The notes under the pieces were generated by a model that was given only the letters and a program-made list of their open reading frames with translations, was not told the origin of the DNA and did no database searches. This document shows positions 1,966 through 43,100 of a stretch of 64,000 nt of DNA, piece by piece (within the stretch, counting starts at the first letter, position 1; the number at the start of each line of letters is the position of its first letter). The stretch lies in the IMG/VR virus record IMGVR_UViG_3300046519_000252. One strand, given 5' to 3'. The translations under genes and the position numbers were made by a program. This DNA comes from an uncultured virus (IMG/VR IMGVR_UViG_3300046519_000252). Taxonomy: Duplodnaviria > Heunggongvirae > Uroviricota > Caudoviricetes.

Positions 1966-2006
1966 GGGAATCTCCTCGGTGGTGGGTATATATCTACCCT
2001 AGCACA

Positions 2007-2777: not shown

Positions 2778-3161
2778 TCATGCGTCGTCTCCTTCATCGG
2801 TGGGCCGGTAGGGCGGGAAGAGGGCTCCTCCGTCGTCTTCCCAGACGCGGACAGGCAGCTTCATGCGTTCCCTCCGCCGGTACTCTTTGGCCCGCTTTCT
2901 CTGGCGATCCTGTTCCTTGCGCAGGAGCTGCCCGGGTGGGGGTTCCCCGGTTTTGGAACGCCGTCTGCGGGCTGTGCGGGGTTCTGCGAGGTTGTCCTTG
3001 CGGCGCTTCTTGAGCCGGTCGTAGGTGTGCCACCAACCGCAGACGCACTTGTAGGATTTGAACAGGGTTCCAAGGTGTTCGCCCTGGTTGGTGGCCGTGA
3101 TGTCGGCCCATTCCTTGTTGAAGTGCTTCAGTTTGCCGGTGGGGCAGTGTCTGCGCTTCAT
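2778..3161 (-). CDS. Basic hypothetical protein with YKCVCGWWH motif
   Basis: ATGA overlap with upstream ORF; Cys/His motif. Confidence 0.55.
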   Translation of the reverse strand: MKRRHCPTGKLKHFNKEWADITATNQGEHLGTLFKSYKCVCGWWHTYDRLKKRRKDNLAEPRTARRRRSKTGEPPPGQLLRKEQDRQRKRAKEYRRRERMKLPVRVWEDDGGALFPPYRPTDEGDDA

Positions 3162-3526
3162 GGATTAGTCGTTGGGAGTCCGTTGCAGGGTCCGGAGCCG
3201 GGTGTGCCGCAGGCGTGATCAGGGCGGGTGCACTTCTGGGGGTCGTTGCGGTGGATGATGGCTTCAGCTGCGATTAGGGCCAGGTTGTAGTGACCCCCCT
3301 CGTACGCCGCGCAGAAGGCATTTTCGATCAGCGTTGCCAGTTCGGGCACGGTGTAGGTGTCGCTGCCGATCGATGGGTATCCGTCGGTGTCTTGGTAAAC
3401 GACGGCCATGCTGACGGTCGGTTCAGGGCGTGCGGATTCTGGGGCGAGGTCACAGTCTCCCCAGGTGTAGGTGTGCTGTTCGGAGCAGGTACGTTTGCAG
3501 CCGCGTTCATACCAGTCGGTGGGCAT
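3158..3526 (-). CDS. Cys-rich hypothetical protein
   Basis: GGAGG RBS; motif copy at 3556-3566. Confidence 0.65.
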   Translation of the reverse strand: MPTDWYERGCKRTCSEQHTYTWGDCDLAPESARPEPTVSMAVVYQDTDGYPSIGSDTYTVPELATLIENAFCAAYEGGHYNLALIAAEAIIHRNDPQKCTRPDHACGTPGSGPCNGLPTTNP

Positions 3527-10587: not shown

Positions 10588-10696
10588 CGTGCCGTTAGGG
10601 ATATTAGGGGGGTTAGGCGGATGGAATCCGATGCTTCCCCGATCCCATTTATGGTAGGGTAGATACATCGTACGAAACACCGTCAAGGAGATCGCT

Positions 10697-11200
10697 ATGC
10701 CCAAGATCGTTGTAAGCGCCGAAGTCGAGAGCCGGATCACCCGGCACGCCGACCCCGACGACATCTGGGATGCAGGCGACACGGCAGGCGAGGTCAGCAA
10801 CGTAGAGGCTTTCATCGATCGCCACGACGGCCGTTACTACGGTGAGTCCGTCGCCCGTGAGCTGGACGTGAAGATCGGCGACACCGTGTACGCGGTCGTC
10901 GCGGACTACGAGAGCGGCAGCACCTTCGGCCGCAGCGGCGGGCATGCGACCGTCCTTGATGTCTTCACCACCCTGCTGGAAGCAGAGGGTCTCCTCGAAG
11001 CCGCTCAGGCGCCTCCGGCGAGTGACGACTACAGCGACCGGTACTCGTTCACGCACAACGGCGTGGATTACCACCGGTCTTGGGTCGGTCACTTCGAGAG
11101 TCTCAACAGCCTGGACATCTGGGACATACAGGTCAAGCAGAACCCCCACGACCCGATCAAGAAGGGTCCTGGCCGCTACAGCCTCAAGCGGGGGCATTGA
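10697..11200 (+). CDS. Hypothetical protein
   Basis: Motif 10655-10665; AAGGAG RBS. Confidence 0.75.
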   Translation: MPKIVVSAEVESRITRHADPDDIWDAGDTAGEVSNVEAFIDRHDGRYYGESVARELDVKIGDTVYAVVADYESGSTFGRSGGHATVLDVFTTLLEAEGLLEAAQAPPASDDYSDRYSFTHNGVDYHRSWVGHFESLNSLDIWDIQVKQNPHDPIKKGPGRYSLKRGH

Positions 11201-11263
11201 ATCGCCGCATAGATCCCGGGTGTTGCTCACCCGGGATCTATGCTAGGGTAGATACATCAACAA

Positions 11264-11414
11264 GGGCGGAATGGCGAGCGTAGGCCGGTTCGAGTCCGGC
11301 CGTCCCGCAGGTCGCGGGTGTGAGGTTCAATTCCTCTTAACCACGGTGGCAAAAAGTGAGGGGCGCGCCCCCGATGACCGCGCAGAGAGGTTCGAGTCCT
11401 CTCCCGCCCGCGCA
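11264..11414 (+). ncRNA. Candidate structured RNA with three T-loop-like hairpins (tRNA mimic or terD leader)
   Basis: GCCGG-TTCGAGT-CCGGC, GAGG-TTCAATT-CCTC and GAGAGG-TTCGAGT-CCTCTC; GGGCGG/CCGCCC closing helix; starts just after motif 11244-11254. Confidence 0.55.
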
Positions 11415-11448
11415 AGACTCTCCCCAACTGACCACGGAGGTCACATCC

Positions 11449-12045
11449 ATGAGCACTCCCATGATCACCCTCACCAAGGACAGCGGCCCCGCCGACCTCG
11501 ACGGCGTCACCCACATGGCCATCGGCGTCTCCTGGGACACCACCGCCGGAAGCAGCGGCGGCCCCCTGGGCGCTCTTCGTCGCAAGGTCGGCACTGACCT
11601 CGACCTGATTGCCGTCGCCATGCAGGGCCCGGACCCGGTGCGTCTCGCAGGCCTCGACTCCCTGGACCCTCTGGGCAACAGCTCCCTGGTGCACAGCGGC
11701 GACAACCAGACGGGCAAGGGCGAGGGCGACGACGAGATCGTCACGGTCGATTTCGCCAAGGTCCCCGCGAACGTCACCGCGATCGTGTTCATCGCCGCTG
11801 CCTACAAGAAGGGCAGTTCCTTCCAGAAGGCCCGCAACATCAGCTTCAAGGTGTACGACGCCACAGGGGGCAGCAGCACGCAGGTCGCCGACATCTGGCC
11901 GTCCCTTCTCAGTTCGGACAACGGGTGCGCGGTCGCCAAGGCCTTCCGCGTCGGCTCCGGCTGGAAGCTCCAGGTGGTCAACGAGACCGGGAAGATCAAG
12001 CAGGGTGACGAGTTCGCTCTGATGCGGTTCGCCATCAGCAAGTGA
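11449..12045 (+). CDS. terD: TerD-family stress protein
   Basis: GVSWD...DLDL...HSGDNQTGKGEGDDE.V.VD...VP motifs. Confidence 0.85.
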   Translation: MSTPMITLTKDSGPADLDGVTHMAIGVSWDTTAGSSGGPLGALRRKVGTDLDLIAVAMQGPDPVRLAGLDSLDPLGNSSLVHSGDNQTGKGEGDDEIVTVDFAKVPANVTAIVFIAAAYKKGSSFQKARNISFKVYDATGGSSTQVADIWPSLLSSDNGCAVAKAFRVGSGWKLQVVNETGKIKQGDEFALMRFAISK

Positions 12046-12295
12046 CCGTTTACGACTACGAGCCGGGCGCGGGCCCGGTTGTACCGGTTTGCCCTGACGA
12101 GAACTGCACGAACACGGAAGACCTCTGGGTTCAGGAGTGCGCCCCCGGCCGTACGTGGGCGTTCTCCAGCAGTGTCTGCGGTCACTGGGGCTTCATCCAC
12201 AAAAAGTCCGACGACGCGTGATTCCATAACCCCCGGGGCTTCCGAGCCTCGGGGGTTCGTGCTAGGGTAGATACATCGACTAACAAGGAGACATC

Positions 12296-14084: not shown

Positions 14085-14594
14085 GTGTCCTCACCTCTGC
14101 TGCTTCTCGATGTCGATGGTGTTTTGTCCCCCACCTTCGCGACGCACAAGCCCCAGGGCTACAACGCGTTCCAGGTCATGCGTGCGGAGCTGGGGGTTTT
14201 CCGGCCGCAGCTCCGACGGATATGGCTGAACAAGAACCACGGGACGTGGCTCAAGGCGCTCGACGTCGACATGGTCTGGGCCACAGCGTGGGAGGCTGCC
14301 GCGAACTGGGAGATCGGACCCCGTATCGGCCTGGGCCCCATGGATCACATCACCTTCAGCAACAGGACATTTCAGCGCAATCTGGATGGGTCGCACTGGA
14401 AGCTGGATGACTTGATGCTGAACGCGGACGGGCGCCCTTTCGTATGGGTAGACGATGGCATCTCAGGCGCCGACACGGTGCGCGTGGCCCTGGAGTACCC
14501 GGCGCCTGCGCTTCTGTACCGTGTCGACCCGCGATGGGGGCTCACCTTGGACGATATGACGAGTATCTGGCAGTGGATCGATGTCGTGTCGTGA
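14085..14594 (+). CDS. HAD-superfamily phosphatase (Swiss-Army-Knife RNA-repair type)
   Basis: LLLDVDGVL, WATAW and FVWVDD motifs; motif 14037-14047 upstream. Confidence 0.8.
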   Translation: MSSPLLLLDVDGVLSPTFATHKPQGYNAFQVMRAELGVFRPQLRRIWLNKNHGTWLKALDVDMVWATAWEAAANWEIGPRIGLGPMDHITFSNRTFQRNLDGSHWKLDDLMLNADGRPFVWVDDGISGADTVRVALEYPAPALLYRVDPRWGLTLDDMTSIWQWIDVVS

Positions 14595-23094: not shown

Positions 23095-24132
23095 TTACAG
23101 ACCCTCAGCGATCTTGTGCAGCTCCTGCACGGGGCCGGTCTCCAGCTGGCTCACCCACTCGGTCGGCCACTCGACTCCAGCCGCACCACGGATGTTGCCT
23201 GCGATCGCCGCGAGGGAGTCGCTGTCTCCGTTCGAGACGGCCGCACGCTGTAGAACCTTGACCGGCTCCTCCCAGAGACCGACGGTGCACAGCATCGCCC
23301 CGGCAAGCGCCTCGGGAGCCGTCCAGCCCTCGCCCGTGATCTGGCAGGGGTCGGAGTCTCCGGCCCAGCCGTGGTTCAGGGCGTCCCTCGCAGACAGCAG
23401 GTAGCCCTTGCACTCTTCGTATCCGGCCCGCAGGTAGGCCGTGCTGGAGCCGTACTCGGACTGCTCCCACAGGTCCCCGAGAACAGCCTTGGGGTACGGG
23501 CCAGGCGCCCGGCAGATCTCGATCAGCAGGTCCAGGATTTCCCGGCCTTCCATGCCGTCGTAGGCGCCGAGGATCGCAGCCACCGTGAGGGCGGCCGAGG
23601 CCAGTGCTGCCGGGTGAGCGTGCGTGATGGCGGAAGACAGGTAGGCCAGGTTGATGGGGGACTCGTACAAGTCTTGGGCCAGGGCGATCGGTGCGACGCG
23701 CATGTTGGCGCCGCAGCCCATCGTGTTGATGTCCGTCGCGTCCTGCCAGGTGAAGCCGTCCCTCAGCATGTCGCAGGCCCGCATGCACGCGTTGCCGGGC
23801 GCCCGGGTGTTGTCGGGGTGGTGCGACCAGTAGACGTACTTACGGATCAGCTCGTCCGTGAAGCTCTCCGTGTAGGTCCCGAGCTTGGTGGGTCGCATCT
23901 GGAGAAGGGCCCGGCCGGTGGCGATGGTCATCTGTGTGTCGTCGGAGATGACCACCTTGCCGTCCGCGTCGCGGTACCGCTTCGGGTGAGGGGCGTTGTC
24001 AAAGTCGGCGGTCTGCCAGTCCCGGCCGGGGAGGAAGTTCAGGATGTCCTTGGTGCGGTTGAACTCGCGGCTGTAGCCGAGGGCGTCTCCGAGGGCGCCT
24101 CCGATAAGCGAGGAAAGGATCTTGTCATTCAA
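23095..24132 (-). CDS. ADP-ribosylglycohydrolase (ARH/DraG family)
   Basis: GGALGDALG...EF, SDDTQMT, GCGANMR..P, ITH and GDSDS.AAIAG motifs; variant motif 24169-24179 upstream. Confidence 0.9.
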   Translation of the reverse strand: MNDKILSSLIGGALGDALGYSREFNRTKDILNFLPGRDWQTADFDNAPHPKRYRDADGKVVISDDTQMTIATGRALLQMRPTKLGTYTESFTDELIRKYVYWSHHPDNTRAPGNACMRACDMLRDGFTWQDATDINTMGCGANMRVAPIALAQDLYESPINLAYLSSAITHAHPAALASAALTVAAILGAYDGMEGREILDLLIEICRAPGPYPKAVLGDLWEQSEYGSSTAYLRAGYEECKGYLLSARDALNHGWAGDSDPCQITGEGWTAPEALAGAMLCTVGLWEEPVKVLQRAAVSNGDSDSLAAIAGNIRGAAGVEWPTEWVSQLETGPVQELHKIAEGL

Positions 24133-25356: not shown

Positions 25357-25368
25357 TCATGGCGCCGG

Positions 25369-25449
25369 TACCCCCTGCGGGATTCGAACCCGCATACCTT
25401 TCGGCGACTTCTTTTGAGGAAGTTGTGTATCCCGTTCCACCAAGGGGGC
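25369..25449 (-). tRNA. tRNA-Leu (anticodon CAA), long variable arm, CCA not encoded
   Basis: GCCCCCT/AGGGGGT acceptor, ACTTC-CTCAAAA-GAAGT anticodon arm, GCC-GAAA-GGT variable arm, GCGGG-TTCGAAT-CCCGC T arm, discriminator A. Confidence 0.9.
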
Positions 25450-29254: not shown

Positions 29255-29334
29255 GACTGGGGGAGGGGACACTTGATGTCCCCTCCCCCTAGTGTTAGGG
29301 TAGATACAACGTAATCGACCGAGGAGACGGCCCC

Positions 29335-30177: not shown

Positions 30178-30412
30178 GCGGGGTTCCCCCTGAGGTGAGT
30201 TGGGGCCTGCGGGCGCATGGCGGCACAACAGGCGGAGAGCAGCATACGGTATTGACCGAGGCCGTTCAATCTACCCTCTCACCCCGAACCATTTGCAGGC
30301 CTATTTGCAGGACTTGTTGTAGGCTCCCGTAAACGTGATCGGTAAGCTACCGTGAACATCACCGAACACAATCAGGCCTCATATGCCGGACCTGTAGCAC
30401 CTGTAGGGGATC

Positions 30413-30679
30413 ATGAGCCTCATAGACGATCTGGTGAGCATCGAATCCCGGCGCGGTACCTATCCCGGGCCGCAGTGCACCGTCGCAAAGATCATGGGAC
30501 AGATCAGCGAAGACGACCGCGCCCAGTTGTGCCGGGTCCTGGACAACCCCGACGTCCCCGGGTCTGTCATCGCCGGGGCTCTTACCCGCAACGGGTATCC
30601 CGTCGCCGACAAAACGGTTCTGCGCCATCGCAAGCGTGGTACGTCCTCCGGCTGCCACTGCCCCAAGGAAGACGCGTGA
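30413..30679 (+). CDS. Small hypothetical protein (C...RHR...C.C)
   Basis: GTGA-coupled to the phosphoesterase gene. Confidence 0.7.
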   Translation: MSLIDDLVSIESRRGTYPGPQCTVAKIMGQISEDDRAQLCRVLDNPDVPGSVIAGALTRNGYPVADKTVLRHRKRGTSSGCHCPKEDA

Positions 30680-32940
30680 GCAGCGGTCTCTCCGGCGACC
30701 TGGAGGCCTTACTGCGCCTCCCCGTCGGTCAAGCGGGACCCTCCAGCACCGGACACGTCCCCACAGCCGCTGTCGGCCGGGAATGGCAGCCCGGAGTCGC
30801 ATTCAACGCTGACGGGGCCATGACCGTCGTCACCGCCCCCACCACGACCAGCCCGCAAGACCCCCAGGCCTGGAAAGCTGCCGTCGAAGAACTCGGCCTC
30901 GCAGTCCCCGAAGGCTGGACCGTCCAGCTTGCCGAAGCCAAGTACGATCCAGCCGCCTGGCACCGGGACGCCCAGGGCGAAGAAGCCGTCACCCGGCCGG
31001 TATGGCGGCTGAAGTTCCGGGTTGCTCCGTCCTCTCTGGCCGGGTACGGCGCGGAGGATGTCGCGACGATGGTTCGGGACGCCATGCGCATCAAACGCAC
31101 CCCACGGCCCCCTGTAGCCCCGTCTCGGGGCCTTGTAGTCGCCTACTCCGACCCCCAGACCGGGAAGGCCCTGGCGGACACCACGCCGATCCTCACAGAC
31201 CGTGGGTGGATCACGCATGGCGAAGTCAAGCCTGGAGACAGCGTGTTCGGCCCGGATGGAACCCTGAAGAGGGTTTTGGCAGTCACCGGGTCCACGGTCC
31301 AGCAGGGCCACCGAGTGGTCTTTGACAAGGACACGGAGATCATCGCCACAGGTGACCATCTGTGGCAGGGATACCGGTTCTACCGGGTAGGCGGTTCGAG
31401 GAGCGGCGGATTCCAGAGGGAACGCCGGTCTCTCCTGTGGACCACAGAGCAGATCGCAGCCATACCCATGCAGCGGGGAGGGTCTGGGATTCCGACTCCG
31501 ATAAGGAGTTTCCATGTGGATCTCCCGGAATCTCTTCAGATGCCGGACGCTGACCTGCCCGTTGATCCCTACCTGTTCGGGGTATGGGTTGGGGACGGAG
31601 TCAGTGCTCGGGGTTCCTATGTGGGGGCACCGGAGGACGTGGCGGTCATCCAGACCTTCACGGGCGGCTACCAGGTAGAAGGCGGATCCCGGCCGGACGT
31701 CGCGTACATCCAGGTGCCGGGTCTGAAGCAGGGTCTGCGGGCACTGGGCGCGCTGGGCAACAAGCACATCCCGGCGGTGTACCTGGAAAGTTCTGCGGAC
31801 CAGCGACTCGCATTGCTCCAGGGTCTGATGGACACAGATGGAACGTGTTCCAAGGGACTGGCGGAGTTCACGACAACGCTCCCTGACGTAGCGGAGTCGG
31901 TGCGATGGTTGGTCTCTTCCCTGGGTATGAAGGCGAAGACGTTTCGTCGGGACCCCATAGGTTTGGGTAAGAAGGAGGTCTTCCGTATCTCCTTCCGGCC
32001 GGACCGCCCGGTCTTCCGTCTCCACCGGAAGCTGGCTCGCCAGTCTCCGGTGGATCCCGGTAACCAGGCCCGGTACCGTCAGGTACAGCGCGTAGAGCCT
32101 GTGGGTGAGGTCTCGGCACAGTGTCTGACCGTGGAAGGTGGCCTGTATCTCGCGGGTCGGGACATGGTGATCACGCATAACTGTGACCGCAGGGGCGGTA
32201 CTCCGGAACTGATCGCCCGCATCGCGGAGAAGTTCGACCGGCTCCAGGACCACGTCAGAGACCTCAAGACCCTCGGCCGTCCGGTGGACTCCGCCTACTG
32301 GATGGATGCCGGGGACTGCGTCGAAGGTCAGCAGAACGTCGCCTCGCAGCTTGCCACGAACGATCTGACCATGACGGAAATGGTCCGGCTGCACCGCAGG
32401 CTGACGTTCGATGGACTGTCTCGGCTGGCCCGGCAGTTCGACTCCGTAACGGCTGCGGTGTGCGCGTCCAACCACGCCCAGCACCGCATCAACGGCAAGG
32501 TCGTCGGACCGCCGTCCGACGACTGGGGCATCGAGACGATGCAGCAGGTTGCCGACGCCTTCAACTGCAACCCGGACTCCTTCGGTCACGTCAAGTTCAT
32601 CCTGCCTGAGAAATGGGAGGAGACCGTGAGCGTGGACGTCGCCGGAACAGTCGTAGGTCTTTCCCACGGTCACCAGGTGCGTGGTCCCGGCAAGGTTGTG
32701 GACTGGTGGCGCGGCCAGACGTTCGGAGAGCAGCCGGTAGCCGCCGCGAAAATCCTTCTGACCGGGCATTTCCACCACTTCCGGGCGGAAGAGGTCGGCT
32801 CCGGCAAGCTGTGGGTACAAGCCCCGGCCCTGGACAACGGGTCTTCCTGGTACGCCAATCGCACCGGCGACGACTCCCGGGCGGGTCTGCTGGTGTTCTC
32901 CGTAGGTGCGGACGGCTGGTCCGACCTTGTCATTCTCTGA
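30676..32940 (+). CDS. Calcineurin-like metallophosphoesterase containing an intein
   Basis: SDPQTGK / GDCVEG / SNH / HGH / GHFHH motifs reconstituted across the intein. Confidence 0.8.
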   Translation: MSSGLSGDLEALLRLPVGQAGPSSTGHVPTAAVGREWQPGVAFNADGAMTVVTAPTTTSPQDPQAWKAAVEELGLAVPEGWTVQLAEAKYDPAAWHRDAQGEEAVTRPVWRLKFRVAPSSLAGYGAEDVATMVRDAMRIKRTPRPPVAPSRGLVVAYSDPQTGKALADTTPILTDRGWITHGEVKPGDSVFGPDGTLKRVLAVTGSTVQQGHRVVFDKDTEIIATGDHLWQGYRFYRVGGSRSGGFQRERRSLLWTTEQIAAIPMQRGGSGIPTPIRSFHVDLPESLQMPDADLPVDPYLFGVWVGDGVSARGSYVGAPEDVAVIQTFTGGYQVEGGSRPDVAYIQVPGLKQGLRALGALGNKHIPAVYLESSADQRLALLQGLMDTDGTCSKGLAEFTTTLPDVAESVRWLVSSLGMKAKTFRRDPIGLGKKEVFRISFRPDRPVFRLHRKLARQSPVDPGNQARYRQVQRVEPVGEVSAQCLTVEGGLYLAGRDMVITHNCDRRGGTPELIARIAEKFDRLQDHVRDLKTLGRPVDSAYWMDAGDCVEGQQNVASQLATNDLTMTEMVRLHRRLTFDGLSRLARQFDSVTAAVCASNHAQHRINGKVVGPPSDDWGIETMQQVADAFNCNPDSFGHVKFILPEKWEETVSVDVAGTVVGLSHGHQVRGPGKVVDWWRGQTFGEQPVAAAKILLTGHFHHFRAEEVGSGKLWVQAPALDNGSSWYANRTGDDSRAGLLVFSVGADGWSDLVIL
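31168..32181 (+). mobile_element. Intein (338 aa, Ala1, class-3 signature) with LAGLIDADG endonuclease
   Basis: K|AL...; block B HLW; block F QCLTV; block G ITHN|C; LLQGLMDTDG. Confidence 0.85.
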
Positions 32941-33458: not shown

Positions 33459-36206
33459 GTGGCGCGTAACGCATGGGCGGACAGACTCGCCACGCTCTAC
33501 GAATTACAGGCGAAAAAGGACTCCCACCGGAACCCCGCCGTATGGGTAAACGACATCCTCGGCGAAGACATGTGGTCCATGCAGACCGCCATTTGCGAGA
33601 GTGTCCGGGACCACCGATTCACAGCCGTGCAAAGCTGTCACGCTGCGGGGAAGATGCTCTATTCTGGAAGCATGCTTCCCACCCCGTACGGCTGGCTTCG
33701 CATGGGCGACGCCAGGACCGGCGACATCGTGCTGGACGAATCCGGCAAACCCACCAAAATCACCGGGATATCTCCGCTCTGGACCCGGATGTTCTACCGG
33801 GTCACCTTCGATGACGGAACCTACGTCGACGCAGGCGACACCCACGAGTGGAACGTCATCGACCTGCGCCACCGGCCCCGCAAGGTGGCGGACTGGCGCG
33901 ACCACTGGGACGCGGCAGTCACCGTGGAGACCCGGCACATGGCGGAGAACCTGCGGGAGAACGGCCAACTGCGCTGGCGCATCCCGCTCGCCGCACCCCT
34001 CCAGTTTCCGGAGCGGGACCTGCTGATCGACCCGTACGTCCTGGGTGTATGGCTCGGAGACGGCGACTCCGACCGGGCCAGCATCACCATCGGCGAGGAC
34101 AAGCTCAAGATCGTGGATGAGCTGATCGCCGCAGGGGAGACGCCCCGGGTCTACCCGTACCCGGACACCCCCGGGCGCTACCGGGTGGCCCTCCCGGACG
34201 GCCTGCTGGGCAAGCTGCGCGGCCTTGCCGTGCTGGGCAACAAGCACATCCCCATGGCGTACCTGCGGGCCTCTGAGAGCCAGCGGCGGGCGCTGCTGGC
34301 CGGTCTGCTGGACACGGACGGCTTCATGGCCAGGGGTCCCGGAGACTCCCGGGTCGGAATCGACCTGACGAACAAGGCCCTTGCCCAGGGTGTGCGGGAA
34401 CTGCTGGTCAGCCTCGGCATCAAGGTCGGCTGGTCCGAGGGCGAAGCCGGTTACACCAAGAACGGTGTACGGAAGACGACCGGTACCCGGTACCGGATGA
34501 ACTTCCGGCCCTTGTCCAACCCGTTCCGGGTGCGCGGGCAGGGCTGGGCGGACACCACCACGCAGCGGTCCCGGGTCACTCAGCGGACCGTCGTGTCGGT
34601 GGAGCCGATCGGGGAGCAGACCAGTTTCTGCATCGAGGTGGACTCGCCGCGTCACCTGTACCTGGCGGGGGAGGGCATGGTGCCCACTCACAACAGTCAC
34701 CTTGCCTCCCGCCTCTCAGCCTGGTGGATCGCCACCACACCCATGGAAGAAGTCTTCCTCGTCACCACGGCGCCCACCGCCCGTCAGGTGGCCTCCATCC
34801 TCTGGCGCTATATCCAGCGCGCCCACAACCTCGCCAAAGAGCGCGGATTCACCATCCCCGGCCAGATCCTCTCCTCGCCGATCCCGTCCTGGAAAATCAA
34901 CGGTGAACTAGTCGGCATCGGGCAGAAGCCGCCGGACAAGGAAGACTCGGCCTTCCAGGGTTTCCACGCCGAAAAGATCCTCGTTGTCATCGACGAAGCG
35001 TGCGGCGTCGACCGGTCCATCTGGGACGCCGTGGACTCCCTCGTCACCAACGAGTCGTCCCGGGTCCTCGCCATCGGGAACCCCACCGACCCCGCGTCAC
35101 ACTTCCGGCAGGTGTGCTCCCCTGAGTCCCCGCTAGGCGAGAAATGGAACAAGATCCGCATCGACGCCCTGCGGTCCCCGCTGATGACCGAAGAGGCCTG
35201 CTCCCGGTACCCCCGCCTGGTGGAGTACATGAAGGAGGAAGGGATCCCCTTCGCCACCGAAGAGGTCTCCCCGACGCTCCAGAAGACGCTGGTGGGCCCG
35301 ACCTGGGTCTATGAATCCATGGTGGGCTGGGGCAAAGACTCCAGCCTGTTCAAGTCCAAAGTGCGGGCCGAGTTCCCCGAAACGTCCTCCGAGGGCGTTA
35401 TCCCGCTGGCCTGGGCAGAAGCCGCCATGGCCCGGTGGGAGAAATGGCGGGACGGGACCTACATCATCGACCCGGACACCGAAGAACCCGTGTGCCTGAT
35501 CGAACCGCGCGCCCAGCAGATCGGCGAGATCGTCATCGGTGCGGACATCTCCGACGGCGGCGAGGATGAGACAGTCGCCGCGATCCGGCAGGGCGAGGTG
35601 ATCCGTGAACTGATCGCGTTCCCCTCCAAGGACCCGCTGACCACCGCAGACGACCTCCAGGTGATCGCGGCCAAGCACGGGGCCCCGACGAACGCCAAGT
35701 ACATCGTGGACGGTATCGGCGTCGGCTCCGGTGTCGTGGCCAAGCTGCGCCGGGACTCCCAGGACACGTACGCGTTCATCGCGGCGGCCAACAGCGGTCG
35801 CAAGGACACCACCCAGAAAATGTCGTTCATCAACGACAGGGCGGCGGCCTGGTGGAACCTGCGCGAGATTCTGAACCCGGCCCGTAAGGGCGGCGCTGTT
35901 GCCGCGTTCCCCCGGGACGACAAGCTGCTTGCGGAACTGACCTGCCCCCGGTTCGACACACAGCCCGGTACCCCGAAGTACAAAATCGAGAAGAAGGAAG
36001 ACATCAGAACCCGGCTGGGGCGGTCGACCGACCGGGCAGACGCCGTGATTCAGGCGTTCTGGCTGCCTTCTGCGGTACCGGGCCCTGAGGAATTGAAGGA
36101 CAACGCCTGGAAGGCTTCCGAGGAACGCTACATCGGCAACGATGATTCAGAGGCCGTGGTGGAAAAGTGGGATACGGCCTCGGATATGGAACTCTCAGGC
36201 TGGTAA
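33459..36206 (+). CDS. terL: Terminase large subunit containing an intein
   Basis: Walker A SCHAAGK|S, TAPT..Q, Walker B VVIDEA, GNP, nuclease IGADIS..G.D and DRADA. Confidence 0.9.
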   Translation: MARNAWADRLATLYELQAKKDSHRNPAVWVNDILGEDMWSMQTAICESVRDHRFTAVQSCHAAGKMLYSGSMLPTPYGWLRMGDARTGDIVLDESGKPTKITGISPLWTRMFYRVTFDDGTYVDAGDTHEWNVIDLRHRPRKVADWRDHWDAAVTVETRHMAENLRENGQLRWRIPLAAPLQFPERDLLIDPYVLGVWLGDGDSDRASITIGEDKLKIVDELIAAGETPRVYPYPDTPGRYRVALPDGLLGKLRGLAVLGNKHIPMAYLRASESQRRALLAGLLDTDGFMARGPGDSRVGIDLTNKALAQGVRELLVSLGIKVGWSEGEAGYTKNGVRKTTGTRYRMNFRPLSNPFRVRGQGWADTTTQRSRVTQRTVVSVEPIGEQTSFCIEVDSPRHLYLAGEGMVPTHNSHLASRLSAWWIATTPMEEVFLVTTAPTARQVASILWRYIQRAHNLAKERGFTIPGQILSSPIPSWKINGELVGIGQKPPDKEDSAFQGFHAEKILVVIDEACGVDRSIWDAVDSLVTNESSRVLAIGNPTDPASHFRQVCSPESPLGEKWNKIRIDALRSPLMTEEACSRYPRLVEYMKEEGIPFATEEVSPTLQKTLVGPTWVYESMVGWGKDSSLFKSKVRAEFPETSSEGVIPLAWAEAAMARWEKWRDGTYIIDPDTEEPVCLIEPRAQQIGEIVIGADISDGGEDETVAAIRQGEVIRELIAFPSKDPLTTADDLQVIAAKHGAPTNAKYIVDGIGVGSGVVAKLRRDSQDTYAFIAAANSGRKDTTQKMSFINDRAAAWWNLREILNPARKGGAVAAFPRDDKLLAELTCPRFDTQPGTPKYKIEKKEDIRTRLGRSTDRADAVIQAFWLPSAVPGPEELKDNAWKASEERYIGNDDSEAVVEKWDTASDMELSGW
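33654..34694 (+). mobile_element. Intein (347 aa, Met1, class-3 signature) with LAGLIDADG endonuclease in the TerL P-loop
   Basis: GK|ML...; HEW; FCIEV; VPTHN|S; LLAGLLDTDG. Confidence 0.85.
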
Positions 36207-38972: not shown

Positions 38973-40139
38973 ATGAGTGCAGAGACTGGGGCGTTAGCGA
39001 CCACCCCGCATCCGTTAGGAAAGCCGAACGGACCGGGTCTTTTCGGAAACAAGTCGTTGAGCCTCCCGCCGTATGTGCAAAACGTGGCCCAGAGCCTTAT
39101 GGAGAAGCGCGGGATGGATCGCTCCCGGGCAATCGCCACGGCCATCGGAGTCATGAAGAACTGGGCATCCGGGCAGGGGAAGGTGCACCCCGAGGTCCGT
39201 GCTGCGGCAGGCGCGGCCCTGGCGGAGTGGGAAGCCGCAAAAATGAAGGCCCACGCCACCCCCAACAAGGGCGCTGTGAGCCTGTCCCAGCCGATGACTC
39301 TCCTGCGCTCCATCCTGGACGGCTCCACTGCGGTGGAACTGGCGCAGACCGCCACAGAGCCCTCAGGAGGCCCGAAGCCCGCCAAGGCCCCGGCCAAGCA
39401 GGACAAGAAGGCCCAGCAAGACCAGCAGCAGACCAAGCACCAGCTGCCTCCGGGCGCTACAGGCTGGAAGCATGGGTGGATTCCTGTCGATTCGTCCGGA
39501 AAAGCTGTCGGTCCATCGCAGATGAACAAGTCTGCGCAGGAGATCAAGGACATGACGGGCCACGACCAGGCCACCAAGGACGCGATCGCCTCCGCGTACC
39601 ACAACAAGTCAGTTGCTGACGGCAAGAAAGCCGCCACAAAGGCCAAGTCCGCCAAGAAGAAGGCGGACGCCGCCGCCAAGCATGCCGCAAAGGCCAAGAC
39701 CGCAGCCGCCAAGAAGGCGCTCCGGGCCAAGGTAGTCGCCGCGAAGAAGGCTGCGGTGGCTGCCAAGAGGAATGCCGCAGCTATCGCGAAAAACAAGGCT
39801 GCGAAGACGAAGGCCCGTCAGAAGCTGGTCACTCAGGCCACCCGGCAGGCGCTCGCGGACAAGAAGGCGGGCCGGTCGCTGACGCCGTCACAGGTCCGGC
39901 TGCTGGACGCGTACAACTCTCAGCAGGCCTCGCAGCTGGACAACCTGCGTAACAACGTGTCGCTGTCTCAGCCGGTTGGCGGGGAATCCCAGGTCACTGT
40001 CCCTACGGGTTCTTCGCAGGACGGCCCTCGTAGCACGGTAAACAGCCTGCTCTCCTCGGTTCCGAAGCGGAAGCTCGCGGATGCCGCGCTGAAGGCTCAG
40101 AAGACGCGGCGTGATCGCCGCAGGAAGGGCGGGAAGTGA
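38973..40139 (+). CDS. K/A-rich putative internal head protein
   Basis: LP.Y...VA..L...G...SRAIA.A N-domain; KHGWIP motif; histone-like AAKK tract. Confidence 0.7.
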   Translation: MSAETGALATTPHPLGKPNGPGLFGNKSLSLPPYVQNVAQSLMEKRGMDRSRAIATAIGVMKNWASGQGKVHPEVRAAAGAALAEWEAAKMKAHATPNKGAVSLSQPMTLLRSILDGSTAVELAQTATEPSGGPKPAKAPAKQDKKAQQDQQQTKHQLPPGATGWKHGWIPVDSSGKAVGPSQMNKSAQEIKDMTGHDQATKDAIASAYHNKSVADGKKAATKAKSAKKKADAAAKHAAKAKTAAAKKALRAKVVAAKKAAVAAKRNAAAIAKNKAAKTKARQKLVTQATRQALADKKAGRSLTPSQVRLLDAYNSQQASQLDNLRNNVSLSQPVGGESQVTVPTGSSQDGPRSTVNSLLSSVPKRKLADAALKAQKTRRDRRRKGGK

Positions 40140-43100
40140 ACACGCAGGAGTACGAGTTAGCATTCGTAACGGTTTTACCGTCGGGTGCTCACGAAGTTCA
40201 GCCCCATACGCTGGACTTTTCCAAGAACCCCGCCGGAGCGTTAGCATTCCGATACAAGCACGGCTGGATCTTGATCAACCCCCTGATCCCTTCCCGGGGA
40301 CTCAGCGGCGGCGGTCTCGCCCGGCAGCACGGCCACCTCTCCGGCGGCTACACCACCGGCCACTTCCACAAGGGCGCCGACGGCAAGGTCCACTTCAAGG
40401 CCGCCAACCGGTACGCCGACAAGGCGGACTGGGAGAAGGAAGTCAGGGCCGGGGCGGCGGGCGTCGTCGCCAAGCAGGAAGCAGCGAAGGCGGCTGTCCA
40501 GAAGGCCGAGGACGCCACCAACCTCACGGAGAAGCTGGCCGGGGAGAAGGCCCCCAAGGCGGCTCAGGCTGCGGCTCACGCGGCTGCTGCGGCGGCTCAC
40601 CAGGACGCTGTGAAGCACTTCCAGGCAATGGGTCAGGACGGCCTCAAGTCCGGGGTGTTGACGCACTCGGCACACAGCGCGATCCACTCCTCCAAGGCGG
40701 GCCAGCTGGAGGCCGCCGCCAAGGCGGAGAAGCTCCAGAAGCAGGTACAGCGCAAGGAGCTGGCTACCGGCCTGTCGAAGAAGGCCAACGATCTCAGCGC
40801 CTCGACGAAGGAGTCCACGGCACTCCCGAAGGAGAAGGCAGCGCTTCACCAGAAGGCTGCGGCATCCCACCTGGCGGCCCAGAAGGCGAACGAGGCAGCC
40901 GGGAACCACTACGTCGCCGACGCCCACGGGAAGGCCGCCGCCAAGCACGAGGCGATTGCTGCACACCAGCTGGAGAAGCACAAGCAGCTGGAGCACGGAG
41001 CGGGTGTCAAGTCGAACAAGGCTGCAACCGCCTCCAAGAGCGCGAAGATAGCGGGCGAAGAGGGTGACTCGTTCCCCTCTCAGCTTGCCGCGCACCAGAA
41101 CGCCTCAACCGCGCACGAAGAGGCCGCCACCGCGCACAAGATCCTCGGGAACACCAAGGTTGCGCAGGACCACCTGACCAGCAAGATGAGCCACAACACG
41201 GCCATTGCCCAGCTGAAGGAGAAGCAGGCCGCGCACGAGGCGACGACGGCTGAGAACGACAAGCTGAAAGGCGCCGCCAACGCGGCGTACCAGAAGGCCA
41301 TCGGCATGCCCGAGGACACGGTGTCCCAGAAGGTGGCCAAGGTCGTCGCTCTCAAGGAGGCGTCCCAGAAGACTGGCGCTGCCATGCAGCACGGCGCGAA
41401 GCACGACCTGCCCGACGATCACCTGATAACGGCGAAGCACGAACAGATGACCGATTTCGCCAAGCAGTTGAAGGGCGAGATCGAGCAGGCGCACAAGGCC
41501 AAGGTCGAAGAGCAGAAGGCCCAGGCCAAGCTGAACCAGGCGGCGTTCGACGCCTCCGACACGGCCAAGACCGCGTCTCAAAAGGCGAACAGCTCCGGCA
41601 CCCTCGCTGACCACTGGGCGGCTCACGATGCCCACCAGGCAGCTGGGGAGGCAGCAGGAACGGCGGGCCACGGGTCGGACATTCAGCAGTATCACGCGAA
41701 GCAGCAGGAAGCGCACCTGGACAAGATCGCGAAGATCCAGGAAGAGCAGGAAGCTGAGGCCGAGAAGGCGAAAGCGGCCAAGAAGGCTGCGATGGTCAAG
41801 GCGCTCGACCTGTCGGACGCTGCCAAAAAGGCCAGCATTGCCGCTGAAAACACGCCGCACGGCAAGGCCCTGATCGGCAAGCACCTGGACGCCGCAGCCG
41901 CTCACCTGGACGCCTCCGAAGCGGCGAAGAACGCTACCGCCGGGACAAAGCTCGCTGAGCACCACAAGGACTTGGCGAAGGAGCACACCGAGACCGCCAA
42001 GAAGCTCGCGACGGACATTGCGGACGCCAACCAGAAGGCCGGGGACTTCTTCAACAACGGCGACGACGCCGAAACCTTCGGCGACACGAGCGCAGCGGCC
42101 CACAACTACAAGAAGGCCGCCGAGCAAGCCGAACTGGCGGGCAACCCCGCAATGAAGGTCAATGCTCTGCACGCCCTTGCCACGCTCACCGGGACGAAGG
42201 AAGACCACAAGGAGGCCGCCAAGGCTGCCCTGAAGGCCCTGGTAGCGGAGAACAAGAAGAGCAACCCCAGCACCTTCTATCAGAACAAGTACGAGCACCT
42301 CTCCGAGGAGCACCTTGCCGCGATCGACAAGATCGGCGAGACCGACCAGCACGCCACAGCCAAGGCGGACGCCTACAAGGCAGCAGCTGACGAGGTGGAC
42401 AAGGCGACTCAGAAGGTCATCACCTCTGCCGGGCTTGGTGCGCAGCCGCAGGCAGACGCCCACTACGGGGCAGCCCAGGCCCACCAGGTGGCTGCGGAGG
42501 CCGCCAAATCGGCGGGGCTGAAGAAAGAAGCTAAGTCGCACGCGGAACAGGTGTCTGCGCACACCCTTACTGGCAACAAGAAGCAGGCAGAGGCCAACCT
42601 CAAGAAGAAGATGACCCAGGAGAAGGCCGAGAAGCAGGCGGTCCAGGAACCGGCCGCTTCGGGGGAAAAGCCGCTCAAGCCGGTAGGCGAGCTGACCAAC
42701 ACCGGCCGCACCCTCGGGACGCACGGCTCTCAGTTGATGAAGGACGAAGCCGGAAACGAATGGCTGAAGAAGACCGACGACTACAGCCGTGTTCTGGACC
42801 CTGCCATCGCGTCCCTTCAGCGCAAGATCGGCATGGACACCCCGGTGTTCGTCAAGACCAAGGAGGGGCACCTCCAGGGCATGCTTCCGGATGCCAAGGA
42901 CGCGTTCCCTAACGGCAACTTCGATCCGGAGAAGCTGTCCGAAGAAGACCTCGCCAAGATGCTCCAGCACCAGGTGCTGGACTACGTCACCGGGAACCAG
43001 GACACCCACTCCGGCCAGTGGCTGCGAACCTCGGACGGCAAACTGATCCAGATCGACCAGGGTCAAGCGTTCAAGTTCGGTGTCGGCAAGGGCAGCGGCG

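What the first reader, a model, noticed from the sequence alone, without database searches (positions are those of the whole stretch)
11255..11448. RNA with three tRNA T-loop hairpins between a promoter and terD
Seen: three hairpins with canonical 7-nt T loops (TTCRAnT) at 11283-11301, 11322-11336 and 11385-11403. The 5' GGGCGG (11264-11269) can pair with CCGCCC right after hairpin 3, or with CCGTCC overlapping the end of hairpin 1. These give alternative acceptor-plus-T-arm minihelices. I could not build a normal D arm and anticodon arm. Established: tRNA-like domains occur in Y RNAs, tmRNA and other mimics and are substrates for RNase P/Z. Inference: a tRNA-mimic decoy (e.g. against tRNA-targeting defences), a processing signal, or a conformational switch controlling terD.
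Basis: partly seen in the sequence, partly recalled or inferred. Interest (0 to 1): 0.75.

Follow-up and report, generated by a model that had tools for sequence, protein, structure and literature searches.

The report
Three-T-loop tRNA-like phage RNA gene
A Streptomyces-type phage carries a small gene for an RNA that has the upper half of a transfer RNA plus two extra tRNA-style hairpins but no anticodon, and a dozen related phages keep the same fold, so it is a real, uncatalogued tRNA look-alike whose job is still untested.

Summary
The three T-loop hairpins lie exactly where stated. They are 3 of only 4 such hairpins in the 64-kb window; the fourth is a real tRNA T arm.

They belong to one ~147-nt RNA gene (11264-11410, + strand) in a phage genome. 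It starts just after a phage promoter-like motif that occurs 20 times in the window.

I found 13 distinct homologues. Four are in cultured Streptomyces phages (Kradal, Satis, Quantum, EhyElimayoE) and the rest in uncultured viral or metagenome contigs. None turned up in 185,579 bacterial and archaeal genomes.

Covariation supports these parts:
- a 6-bp acceptor-type terminal stem stacked on a 6-bp T arm;
- a second T-loop hairpin (H1);
- a hairpin with an invariant GG loop (HM);
- a third T-loop hairpin (H2) with a small GG hairpin (h3);
- a variable hairpin (H4).

No anticodon loop is conserved. ARAGORN and Rfam do not recognise the element.

The genes downstream differ between phages. In one relative the RNA sits between its own promoter motif and a strong hairpin. 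It is therefore a stand-alone gene, not a terD leader.

My best reading is a trans-acting, non-decoding tRNA mimic that is processed like a tRNA. Its target is unknown.

The parts
11207..11243 (.). Perfect 16-bp inverted repeat (arms 11207-11222 and 11228-11243, 5-nt loop) just after the stop codon of the upstream ORF. It overlaps the first 3 nt of the promoter motif. It is probably the upstream gene's terminator hairpin or an operator.
   Evidence: Read from the sequence. A reverse-strand self-match of query positions 58-94 appears in the near-identical record G001. No T-run follows it, so the terminator scan does not list it.
11241..11258 (+). Phage promoter-like motif TGCTAGGGTAGATACATC, with an extended -10-like TGnTAGGGT. 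It ends 5 nt before the RNA's first base.
   Evidence: There are 20 matches with 3 or fewer mismatches in the window, against 0.01 expected. By my ORF map, 17 of the other 19 copies lie about 11-35 nt upstream of a same-strand ORF start; here the next start codon is 191 nt away. Relative G006 has 46 copies of the shorter motif TGCTAGGGTAGAT at up to 1 mismatch, against 0 for the control pattern, and one copy sits in front of its copy of the RNA. The sigma-70 consensus scan finds nothing. Promoter function is inferred.
11264..11410 (+). The whole tRNA-like RNA gene, from acceptor 5' base G11264 to discriminator G11410. No CCA is encoded.
   Evidence: Covariance model R1 gives 150.5 bits, E 2.4e-41, and this is the only strong hit in the window. 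Covariation is shown. The strand is fixed by many G:U pairs, for example U:G in 13 of 13 at one P2 pair and G:U in 5 of 13 at one T-stem pair.
11264..11269 (+). Acceptor-type stem, 5' strand GGGCGG. It pairs with 11404-11409. A11270 faces C11403, which instead can pair with G11385.
   Evidence: Four of 6 pairs show changes on both sides, and 98.7% of cells are paired across 13 sequences. Position 7 is A and the facing base is C in 13 of 13.
11271..11277 (+). Single-stranded linker AUGGCGA with an invariant GG (11273-11274). It takes the place of the D arm.
   Evidence: GG is invariant in 10 of 10 and 12 of 12. Its contact with the T loop is inferred by analogy with tRNA G18/G19 and the tmRNA tRNA-like domain; it does not vary, so it cannot be tested.
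11278..11281 (+). P2 5' strand GCGU. It pairs with GCGC at 11380-11383, immediately 5' of the T arm, and closes the internal domain.
   Evidence: Predicted by RNAalifold. It is invariant in 13 of 13, so covariation neither supports nor contradicts it.
11283..11301 (+).
   Evidence: Two of 6 pairs have compensatory changes. The loop fits UUCRANY in 12 of 13; L040 has UCCGAUU.
11304..11318 (+). HM: 5-bp hairpin CCCGC-AGGUC-GCGGG with an invariant GG (11310-11311) in its loop.
   Evidence: Two of 5 pairs have compensatory changes. The loop GG is invariant. Its pairing with the H1 T loop (C:G in 12 of 12) is inferred.
11322..11336 (+).
   Evidence: One pair is compensatory, G:C to A:U, in 3 sequences. 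A 7-nt T-type loop is present in 9 of 13. The four Kradal-type sequences have a short non-T loop instead.
11341..11349 (+). h3: small hairpin CCA-CGG-UGG. Its last loop base is proposed to pair with position 3 of the H2 T loop, like G19:C56 in tRNA.
   Evidence: It is present in 9 of 13 and absent from exactly the four sequences that lack the H2 T loop. There is one compensatory stem change, C:G to U:A, in L022. The proposed tertiary pair is C:G in 7 and U:A in 1 (L019) of the 8 sequences scored.
11358..11372 (+). H4: variable hairpin (GGGG-CGCG-CCCC here), in the position of an anticodon arm. Its length and loop are not conserved.
   Evidence: The stem covaries: one pair is GC in 5, UA in 4 and CG in 3 sequences. 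Loops run from 4 to about 20 nt with no common motif.
11385..11403 (+). It stacks on the acceptor stem, giving 6+6 = 12 bp.
   Evidence: Three of 6 pairs are compensatory and 100% of cells are paired. The loop is UUCGANN in 13 of 13.
11404..11410 (+). Acceptor 3' strand CCGCCC plus discriminator G11410.
   Evidence: The discriminator is A in 12 of 13 and G only here. The next base is C in 12 of 13.
11449..12045 (+). TerD-domain CDS, the downstream neighbour. It is not part of the RNA family.
   Evidence: Pfam TerD, E 2.3e-17. This gene does not follow the RNA in the relatives examined.

Best explanation
Positions 11264-11410 (+) are a stand-alone gene for a ~147-nt non-decoding tRNA-like RNA. 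It belongs to a family not represented in Rfam and was found only in Streptomyces-type phages and related viral or metagenome contigs.

Shown:
- The two ends form a 6-bp acceptor-type stem that abuts a 6-bp T arm. Together they give 12 stacked pairs, the same as 7+5 in tRNA.
- The D arm is replaced by a short linker with an invariant GG.
- Where the anticodon arm would be there is a helix (P2, then H4) of variable length with no conserved loop.
- From that arm's 5' strand branches an insert holding a second T-loop hairpin (H1), a GG-loop hairpin (HM) and, in 9 of 13 members, a third T-loop hairpin (H2) with a small GG hairpin (h3).

Inferred:
- Each T loop docks on a GG element as the T and D loops do in a tRNA elbow, so the RNA displays two or three elbows.
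- It is transcribed from the repeated phage promoter-like motif.
- It is trimmed at the 5' end by RNase P and at the 3' end at the discriminator, and then CCA-tailed like the phage's CCA-less tRNAs.
- It acts in trans as a tRNA mimic on a factor that reads the acceptor, T arm or elbow rather than the anticodon. The most likely role is to occupy or divert a host tRNA-directed enzyme or defence protein.

My odds: real structured RNA family, about 0.95. Stand-alone, trans-acting tRNA mimic, about 0.6. Specifically a decoy against a host tRNA-targeting defence, about 0.25.
For: Observation beyond chance: 3 of the window's 4 T-loop hairpins lie here; shuffles give a mean of 0.59 per window.

Homologues: there are 13 distinct sequences. 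Model R1 scores them at 132-180 bits. It gives one strong hit per record in 5 of 5 phage records searched whole, and one in the window.

Covariation:
- On an independent MAFFT alignment of 10 sequences, 97.8% of cells pair and 14 of 37 pairs have double changes. No shuffle of 500 reaches this. Slid controls pair 42-58% of cells and have at most 4 such pairs.
- On the model-fitted alignment of 13 sequences, 97.8% pair and 15 of 40 pairs have double changes; again 0 of 500 shuffles reach it.

Tertiary hint: L019 alone has U at T-loop position 3 of H2, and it alone has A as the last loop base of h3 (C:G in 7, U:A in 1). H2's T loop and h3 are lost together in the four Kradal-type sequences.

Non-decoding: no hairpin has a conserved 7-nt anticodon-type loop. 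ARAGORN calls no gene at the element in the window, nor in any of the other element-bearing loci scanned: L001, L024, L026-L029, L002, L020-L022, L040 and L154.

Stand-alone gene:
- In L154 the same promoter motif sits 9 nt before the RNA.
- In L154 a 15-bp hairpin (-34.6 kcal/mol, z -4.87) starts 3 nt after the discriminator.
- The downstream neighbours differ: terD here, an RNA ligase in G004 and another structured RNA in Kradal-type loci.
- No flanking protein is shared with the window.

tRNA-like handling is plausible:
- The RNA lies just downstream of same-strand tRNA genes in L024, L026, L027, L028 and L022. In L027 it starts 7 nt after tRNA-Leu(CAA).
- Its 3' trailer (A then C, no CCA) matches that of the neighbouring phage tRNA in L010.
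- M. smegmatis YrlA, a tRNA-like RNA with a 7-bp acceptor stem, is cut by RNase P in vitro and gains CCA in vivo (PMC4201824, passages read).

Phage-specific: the strict pattern has 0 hits in 185,579 prokaryote genomes. The loose pattern gave 82 hits, which I read as chance. None of the 23 of the 82 hit loci scanned with ARAGORN holds a tRNA gene. Only 1 weak model hit (27.8 bits) came from the 80 loci searched.

RNA-conflict context: an RNA ligase is directly downstream in G004. A HAD 'Swiss Army Knife RNA repair' domain protein is 2.7 kb downstream here. Kradal carries a Ro-like protein with a YrlA-like RNA beside it.
Against: There is no expression data. No RNA run holds the sequence, so the transcript, its ends and any CCA tail are all inferred.

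The fold is not more stable than shuffled sequence: z -0.08, with 91 of 200 shuffles folding at least as well.

P2, the GG/CC pairs and two of the three proposed elbow contacts never vary, so they are untested.

The one tertiary covariation is a single sequence. I estimate roughly 0.04-0.1 that it arose by chance.

The joint loss of the H2 T loop and h3 is one evolutionary event.

The 13 sequences are related, so counted cells are not independent events. The 13-sequence alignment is also fitted to the model.

I found no protein partner shared by all carriers: RNA ligase in 2 of 5, HAD_SAK_2 in 2 of 5, TROVE in 3 of 5, CCA-adding-type PolyA_pol in 0 of 5, and the homologue of window ORF 3158-3526 in 2 of 5.

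Nothing identifies the target, so 'decoy' is an analogy.

In the window no terminator follows the RNA, so it is probably co-transcribed with terD. That leaves room for a cis role.
Confidence: 0.6

Rival explanations
1. Processing or punctuation signal. The tRNA-like fold exists only to recruit RNase P and the 3' tRNA-processing enzymes. These would then cut polycistronic transcripts at this point: the end of a tRNA array, or the 5' end of the terD mRNA.
For: In the window the RNA lies between a promoter-like motif and terD, with no terminator between them. In five relatives it closes a run of tRNA genes.
Against: A bare acceptor and T-arm minihelix would be enough for that job. Here about 75 extra nucleotides (H1, HM, H2, h3) are conserved with compensatory changes and invariant loop bases. 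In L154 the RNA is a monocistronic unit between a promoter motif and a strong hairpin, with nothing to be cut free.
Confidence: 0.15
2. Charged, ribosome- or transferase-directed RNA. After CCA addition the RNA is aminoacylated by a synthetase that ignores the anticodon (Leu-, Ser- or Ala-type). It then acts like the tRNA-like domain of tmRNA, or as an amino-acid donor or EF-Tu sink.
For: The topology matches the tmRNA tRNA-like domain: acceptor, GG linker, then a helix closing an internal domain right next to the T arm. The 12-bp acceptor/T stack is kept in 13 of 13, and the discriminator is conserved (A in 12 of 13). The RNA is adjacent to tRNA-Leu(CAA) in L027 and L026. That LeuRS, SerRS and AlaRS do not read the anticodon is recalled knowledge, not from a call.
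Against: There is no G:U at the third acceptor pair in any of 13 sequences (UA 5, GC 4, AU 3, other 1), so there is no alanine identity. There is no conserved reading frame or stop inside; a UAA in H4 of L015, L020 and L040 is absent from L021 and others. ARAGORN calls no tmRNA. Charging cannot be tested here.
Confidence: 0.12
3. RNA subunit or scaffold of a phage-encoded protein complex. Its partner would be a phage protein rather than a host factor.
For: Kradal, G003 and G004 encode a Ro-like (TROVE) RNA-binding protein. Such proteins work with tRNA-like Y RNAs (PMC4201824 and PMC7824862, passages read).
Against: TROVE is absent from G002 (complete) and from the roughly 90 kb known of the window's phage. 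Kradal already has a YrlA-like RNA directly upstream of its Ro gene (43 bits, E 3e-7, below the threshold of 69), 40 kb from this element. None of the few proteins shared between the window's phage and Kradal or G004 is present in all carriers.
Confidence: 0.08
4. Cis-acting conformational switch that controls terD, by alternative pairing of the 5' GGGCGG.
For: In the window GGGCGG can pair 6/6 with CCGUCC after hairpin 1. terD follows 38 nt after the RNA.
Against: A 6/6 alternative exists in only 2 of 13 homologues and in different registers, while the terminal pairing covaries. terD follows the RNA only in the window and its near-identical record G001.
Confidence: 0.03
5. Decayed tRNA genes, or leftover tRNA 3' ends from integrations (att-site scars), with no function.
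For: T arm plus acceptor 3' strand is what integration scars look like. The internal 'UUGACCA' after H2 resembles a tRNA 3' end.
Against: Compensatory changes in 15 of 40 pairs show selection on RNA pairing. There is a single copy per genome, at 132-180 bits, across phages that share few genes. The strict pattern matches no bacterial genome. The internal 'CCA' is held in a covarying hairpin: it is CUA in L022, with a compensating A.
Confidence: 0.02

Closest known systems
Phage T4 small stable RNAs RNAC and RNAD (species 1 and 2)
   Same: They are phage-encoded small non-coding RNAs transcribed from the tRNA gene region, and their biological role is unknown (PMC3014915 and PMC9697503, passages read). 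That they have tRNA-like termini is my recollection and comes from no call.
   Different: No sequence similarity was detected: blastn of the element against 50,697 phage records hit only four Streptomyces phages. T4 infects E. coli. A three-T-loop architecture is not something I know for RNAC or RNAD. Their structures were not available to compare.
tRNA-like domain of tmRNA (SsrA)
   Same: The acceptor stem is formed by the 5' and 3' ends. There is a true T arm. A single-stranded GG-bearing segment stands in for the D arm. A helix closes a large internal domain right next to the T arm.
   Different: There is no G3:U70 in any of 13 sequences. There is no conserved tag reading frame and no pseudoknot ring, and the RNA is about 147 nt rather than about 350. 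It is not called by ARAGORN or by Rfam at E up to 10. The internal domain is made of T-loop hairpins.
YrlA (bacterial and phage Y RNA with a tRNA-like domain, Rfam RF02553)
   Same: It is a non-decoding tRNA mimic with a T arm. Members occur in actinobacteria and phages. M. smegmatis YrlA is cut by RNase P in vitro and gains CCA in vivo (PMC4201824, passages).
   Different: In YrlA the RNA ends form the Ro-binding helix, and the gene lies next to the Ro60 gene. Here the ends form the acceptor stem. There is no RF02553 match at E up to 10. Kradal has a separate YrlA-like RNA beside its Ro gene. Two of 5 carriers show no TROVE protein.
Ordinary phage tRNA genes (Rfam RF00005)
   Same: It shares an acceptor-type stem, a T arm with UUCRANY loop, a discriminator, a CCA-less 3' end, and a position in or after tRNA arrays.
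   Different: It has no D arm and no anticodon arm. It is twice as long, carries two extra T-loop hairpins, and has a 6+6 rather than 7+5 acceptor/T stack. There is no RF00005 match in the 501-nt permissive search.

Membership tests
tRNA (RF00005 / ARAGORN) | Acceptor stem formed by the 5' and 3' ends, followed by a discriminator | tested here: met
   Six covarying pairs (4 of 6 with double changes) plus an A or G discriminator. The seventh pair is an A/C mismatch in 13 of 13.
tRNA (RF00005 / ARAGORN) | T arm with a 7-nt UUCRANY loop closed by G:C | tested here: met
   Met in 13 of 13.
tRNA (RF00005 / ARAGORN) | D arm, and an anticodon arm with a conserved 7-nt loop | tested here: not met
   No such arms appear in the consensus structure. 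The H4 loop varies from 4 to about 20 nt. ARAGORN makes no call. There is no RF00005 hit at E up to 10.
tmRNA | G3:U70 alanine identity pair in the acceptor stem | tested here: not met
   The third pair is UA in 5, GC in 4, AU in 3 and other in 1; never G:U.
tmRNA | Internal tag-peptide reading frame with a resume codon and a conserved stop, plus pseudoknots | tested here: not met
   No conserved frame or stop (sequences). ARAGORN's tmRNA search is negative. There is no tmRNA family among the Rfam matches.
tmRNA | tRNA-like-domain topology (acceptor, GG linker, closing helix beside the T arm) | tested here: inconclusive
   RNAalifold predicts it, but the closing helix P2 is invariant in 13 of 13, so covariation does not support it.
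YrlA / Y RNA | Match to RF02553, and a terminal Ro-binding helix | tested here: not met
   RF02553 does not appear among matches at E up to 10 or at the gathering threshold in 8 homologous loci. The termini form a 6-bp acceptor-type stem.
YrlA / Y RNA | Encoded next to a Ro60 (TROVE) gene | tested here: not met
   TROVE is present in 3 of 5 carrier records and lies 20-40 kb from the element. Kradal's YrlA-like RNA sits beside its Ro gene instead.
T4 RNAC/RNAD-type phage stable RNAs | Small stable RNA made from the phage tRNA region, with no decoding function | tested here: inconclusive
   The position after tRNA genes is met in 5 loci. Stability and expression are not testable. No sequence similarity was found.
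Cis-regulatory leader / riboswitch of terD | Conserved linkage to the regulated downstream gene | tested here: not met
   What follows differs: terD, an RNA ligase, another RNA, or a hairpin right after the RNA. No flanking protein is shared.
tRNA-gene integration scar (att remnant) | Identity to a host tRNA 3' end, and no selection on RNA pairing | tested here: not met
   The strict pattern has 0 hits in the prokaryote genome collection. Fifteen of 40 pairs have compensatory changes.

The most novel reading that the evidence does not exclude
The RNA is a multi-elbow tRNA decoy, a new class of phage anti-defence RNA. After RNase P trimming and CCA addition it presents one authentic acceptor/T-arm 'top half' and two further T-loop/GG-loop elbows on a single 147-nt molecule. 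With these it traps or mis-directs a host protein that recognises tRNA by shape: a tRNA-cleaving or tRNA-end-modifying immune effector, or a tRNA maturation enzyme. That would protect the phage's translation in Streptomyces.
Probability: 0.2. Interest if true: 0.9.

Novelty: new variant of a known kind. Interest (0 to 1): 0.72.

Why it matters
Phages are known to carry tRNAs and a few tRNA-like RNAs whose roles are mostly unsolved. T4 RNAC and RNAD have had no assigned function for decades.

This family gives a clean case to work on. It has a well-defined covarying fold, a clear non-decoding design, and up to three tRNA-elbow-like modules.

It also has members in four cultured phages that grow on S. 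lividans or S. griseofuscus, so deletion, pull-down and structural work are directly possible.

If the target turns out to be a tRNA-directed defence or a tRNA-processing enzyme, the family would show a new way for viruses to use tRNA shape rather than tRNA decoding. It would also add a family to the RNA catalogues, where it has no match in Rfam 15.

Tried and rejected
Expression. The look-up of sequencing runs listed 13 DNA-type rhizosphere metagenome runs and no RNA holder. This says nothing either way, and I did not lay reads.

Rfam. The whole-window gathering search gave 0 matches. That run also missed the genuine tRNA-Leu, which scores 51 bits when searched locally, so I rely on the permissive 501-nt search.

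Thermodynamics. The MFE fold is no better than shuffles.

Bacterial homologues. The strict pattern gave 0 hits. The loose 3' pattern gave 82 hits that behave as chance. None of the 23 of the 82 hit loci scanned with ARAGORN holds a tRNA gene. Among the 80 hit loci searched with the model, only L089 scored (27.8 bits). By eye L089 looks like a long UCA-anticodon, tRNA-Sec-like gene, not this family.

Further viral scans added only L040 and L154. In one search I put one N too many in the pattern, so it missed the known members and found L154 only because L154 has a 1-nt bulge.

Protein partner. I compared all ORFs of the window plus G001 with Kradal and G004, and searched five families or proteins across carriers. 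None is universal.

Y RNA idea. I considered it because TROVE proteins turned up, and rejected it (see the membership test). The YrlA 'GNCGAAN0-1G' motif named in PMC4201824 resembles GGCGAAAAGG in some members, but it has two spacer bases and is not kept in the window, L020, L022 or the Kradal type.

Minus-strand terminator-like hit at 11372-11359. This is H4 plus the A-run read backwards. The G:U pairs fix the RNA to the + strand.

Literature. Searches for tRNA-like, Streptomyces phage, tmRNA, T-loop, decoy, actinobacteriophage, Satis and Kradal found no description of this RNA. These cover only the held open-access library.

Earlier findings. By place and by sequence there was nothing.
Full report
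**What the window is.** The 64-kb window is phage DNA.
- It encodes a Mu-type portal, a capsid protein, a long SLT-domain protein of the kind seen in tail tape measures, ParA, PrimPol and other phage-typical proteins.
- It is 98-99.9% identical to part of a 76-kb viral record, G001.
- An 18-nt motif, TGCTAGGGTAGATACATC, occurs 20 times with 3 or fewer mismatches, against 0.01 expected.
- By my ORF map, 17 of the other 19 copies lie about 11-35 nt upstream of a same-strand ORF start. I therefore read the motif as the phage's promoter; it contains an extended -10-like TGnTAGGGT. This is an inference, and the sigma-70 consensus scan finds nothing.
- The copy at 11241-11258 is the exception. The next start codon, of the TerD-domain gene at 11449 (Pfam E 2.3e-17), is 191 nt away, and the finding fills that gap.

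**The observation.**
- A script that looks for G:C-closed hairpins of 4 bp or more with a TTCRANY loop finds four in both strands of the window.
- Three are within 121 nt here. The fourth is the T arm of the window's tRNA-Leu. Shuffled windows give 0.59 on average.
- ARAGORN calls nothing at the site.
- Rfam's permissive search of 11100-11600 gives only sub-threshold noise. The best hit is tRNA-Sec at 17.8 bits against a threshold of 47, and it aligns only the acceptor and T arm.
- The whole-window Rfam run is a weak negative, because it also missed the real tRNA-Leu, which scores 51 bits locally.

**Relatives.**
- blastn against 50,697 phage records hit the same stretch in four 186-kb Streptomyces phages: Kradal, Quantum, EhyElimayoE and Satis. 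There it is unannotated, or overlapped by a 39-codon 'hypothetical protein'.
- Pattern scans of viral and metagenome contigs added more.
- In all there are 13 distinct sequences.
- A covariance model built from ten of them scores the 13 at 132-180 bits.
- The model finds one strong copy in the window and one per record in 5 of 5 phage records searched whole.
- The strict pattern has no match in one genome for each of 185,579 prokaryote species.
- A looser 3' pattern gave 82 hits that behave as chance.

**Structure.** RNAalifold on a plain MAFFT alignment of ten sequences gives these elements:
- a 6-bp terminal stem;
- a linker with an invariant GG;
- a 4-bp helix, P2 (GCGU/GCGC), that closes the interior right beside the T arm;
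- H1, with a 6-bp stem and a T loop;
- HM, with a 5-bp stem and an invariant GG in the loop;
- H2, with a 3-4-bp stem;
- H4, a variable hairpin;
- a 6-bp T arm.

I added a small hairpin, h3 (CCA-NNN-UGG).

Pair counts:
- On the MAFFT alignment 97.8% of cells pair and 14 of 37 pairs show changes on both sides. No shuffle of 500 reaches this. Structures slid by 1-3 columns pair 42-58% of cells and have at most 4 such pairs.
- The model-fitted alignment of 13 gives the same picture: 15 of 40 pairs, 0 of 500 shuffles. That alignment leans towards the model.
- The acceptor-type stem is the best supported part: 4 of 6 pairs covary, with up to five pair types at one position.
- P2 and the GG/CC pairs never vary and so are untested.
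- G:U pairs, such as 5 of 13 at one T-stem pair, place the RNA on the + strand.

Position 7 is A, and it faces C in 13 of 13. That C can instead pair with the invariant G before the T stem. The stack is then 6+6 = 12 bp, the same length as 7+5 in tRNA.

**What is and is not tRNA-like.** The T arm loop is UUCGANN in 13 of 13.
- H1's loop fits the T-loop consensus in 12 of 13; L040 has UCCGAUU.
- H2 has a 7-nt T-type loop in 9 of 13.
- The four Kradal-type sequences have a short ordinary loop in H2, and they also lack h3 entirely.
- L019 is the only sequence with U instead of C at T-loop position 3 of H2. It is also the only one with A instead of G as the last h3 loop base.
- This matches the G19:C56 elbow pair of tRNA changing to A:U. 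I estimate a few per cent probability that it arose by chance. It is one sequence, so it is only suggestive.

Together with the invariant GG in the HM loop and in the 5' linker, this leads me to propose that each T loop docks on a GG element, giving two or three tRNA-type elbows. That is an inference.

No hairpin has a conserved anticodon-type loop. H4, which lies where an anticodon arm would be, varies from a tetraloop to a roughly 30-nt insert. The RNA therefore cannot decode.

**Independent gene, not a terD leader.** The neighbours differ between carriers.
- Here the downstream gene is terD.
- In G004 an RNA-ligase gene starts right after the RNA (Pfam RNA_ligase, E 3e-16).
- In Kradal-type loci and L010 a second conserved structured region follows.
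- In L154 the same promoter motif as in the window sits 9 nt before the RNA. Its phage, G006, has 46 copies of the motif against 0 for the control pattern. A 15-bp G+C hairpin (-34.6 kcal/mol, z -4.87) begins 3 nt after the discriminator. The tool's T-run rule does not call that hairpin a terminator.
- No flanking protein is shared between the window and the other loci.

Five loci place the RNA just downstream of same-strand tRNA genes. In L027 the gap after tRNA-Leu(CAA) is 7 nt. The 3' trailer, a discriminator then C with no CCA, resembles that of the tRNA gene beside it in L010. tRNA-style maturation is therefore plausible. There is a precedent in an actinobacterium: M. smegmatis YrlA is cut by RNase P in vitro and gains CCA in vivo (PMC4201824, passages read).

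**Comparison with known families.**
- It is not a tRNA, because it has no D or anticodon arm.
- It is not a tmRNA. No acceptor has G3:U70 (0 of 13), there is no tag frame, and ARAGORN makes no call. It does share the topology of tmRNA's tRNA-like domain.
- It is not a YrlA. There is no RF02553 match, and its ends form the acceptor stem rather than a Ro-binding helix. Kradal keeps a separate YrlA-like RNA directly upstream of its Ro-like gene gp136. TROVE was not found in 2 of 5 carriers.
- The nearest functional analogues are T4's RNAC and RNAD. These are small RNAs from the T4 tRNA region with unknown roles (PMC3014915 and PMC9697503, passages). I could not compare structures, and no sequence similarity was seen.

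My literature searches of the held library found no description of this RNA.

**Function.** Nothing here measures function.
- The design is a preserved acceptor/T 'top half' with extra elbows, no anticodon, phage-only distribution, and its own promoter-like motif.
- The carriers also hold RNA-repair and RNA-conflict genes: RNA ligase in 2 of 5, HAD_SAK_2 in 2 of 5, and Ro with YrlA in 3 of 5.
- This points to a trans-acting tRNA mimic that engages a shape-reading tRNA partner.
- No phage protein co-occurs with it in all carriers, so a host partner is the more likely one.
- Whether it is a decoy for a tRNA-directed defence, a sink for a tRNA enzyme, a charged RNA, or merely an elaborate processing site cannot be decided without experiments. 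The cultured Kradal-group phages make those experiments feasible.

**Verdict.** It is a new, well-supported family of phage tRNA-like RNAs and a new variant of a known kind. Interest is 0.72.

Noticed in passing
window, 20 sites, e.g. 1987-2004(-), 10652-10669(+), 12260-12277(+), 29293-29310(+): A repeated 18-nt motif, TGCTAGGGTAGATACATC (20 copies against 0.01 expected), mostly lies about 11-35 nt upstream of same-strand ORF starts. It is probably the phage's own promoter type. Relative G006 has 46 copies of the 13-nt core.
   Followed up: partly
window 25367-25449(-) versus G001 (L140 11429-11504(-)): The window has an 83-nt long-arm tRNA-Leu(CAA). At the same place the near-identical record G001 has a different 76-nt short-arm tRNA with anticodon CAA, followed by a different downstream stretch (unannotated, not searched) that the window lacks. 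This is the only long stretch before window position 31164 where the two do not align. G002 and G004 also carry 74-76-nt CAA tRNAs next to the element.
   Followed up: partly
L001 2655-2800 (Kradal), L010 536-690, L012 433-580, L014 392-240(-): Directly after the tRNA-like RNA, these four phages share a second conserved region of about 125 nt (core GAGGCCAA...GATC). Fourteen of 32 predicted pairs have compensatory changes. Rfam's gathering search of the larger loci covering the same regions (L024, L027-L029) gave no match there. The window lacks this region.
   Followed up: partly
L022 842-709(-) and L040 300-235(-): Further non-canonical tRNA-like genes lie next to the element. One is a ~130-nt RNA with a perfect 7-bp acceptor (GUGACGU/ACGUCAC), a GGCAGAGCG linker and a T arm. 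The other is a ~66-nt RNA. Both are preceded by a shared ctagagactcctg...(g)taaa(a)c motif. ARAGORN calls neither. Model R1 scores them at only 15-19 bits.
   Followed up: no
L153 (Kradal 85279-87090): Kradal gp136 is annotated as a Ro-like RNA-binding protein. A YrlA-like RNA (RF02553, 43 bits, E 3e-7, below the threshold of 69) lies unannotated just upstream, at 86982-87090(-). TROVE proteins are also present in G003 and G004.
   Followed up: partly
window 30352-32940 and 33459-36206 versus G001: Two large ORFs carry LAGLIDADG/homing-endonuclease domains. The alignment with G001 breaks at 31164-32185 and 33653-34698, which suggests intein or homing-endonuclease insertions present in the window and absent from G001.
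   Followed up: no
window 40136-45655(+), 23095-24132(-), 14085-14594(+): An 1839-aa ORF downstream of the portal and Mu F-like head genes ends in an ADP-ribosyltransferase exoenzyme domain. The phage also encodes an ADP-ribosylglycohydrolase and a HAD 'Swiss Army Knife RNA repair' domain protein.
   Followed up: no
window, whole: The 64-kb Rfam gathering search returned 0 matches, although the tRNA-Leu scores 51 bits (threshold 29) when its 301-nt surroundings are searched. The fast filters can lose real tRNAs in this G+C-rich DNA.
   Followed up: yes
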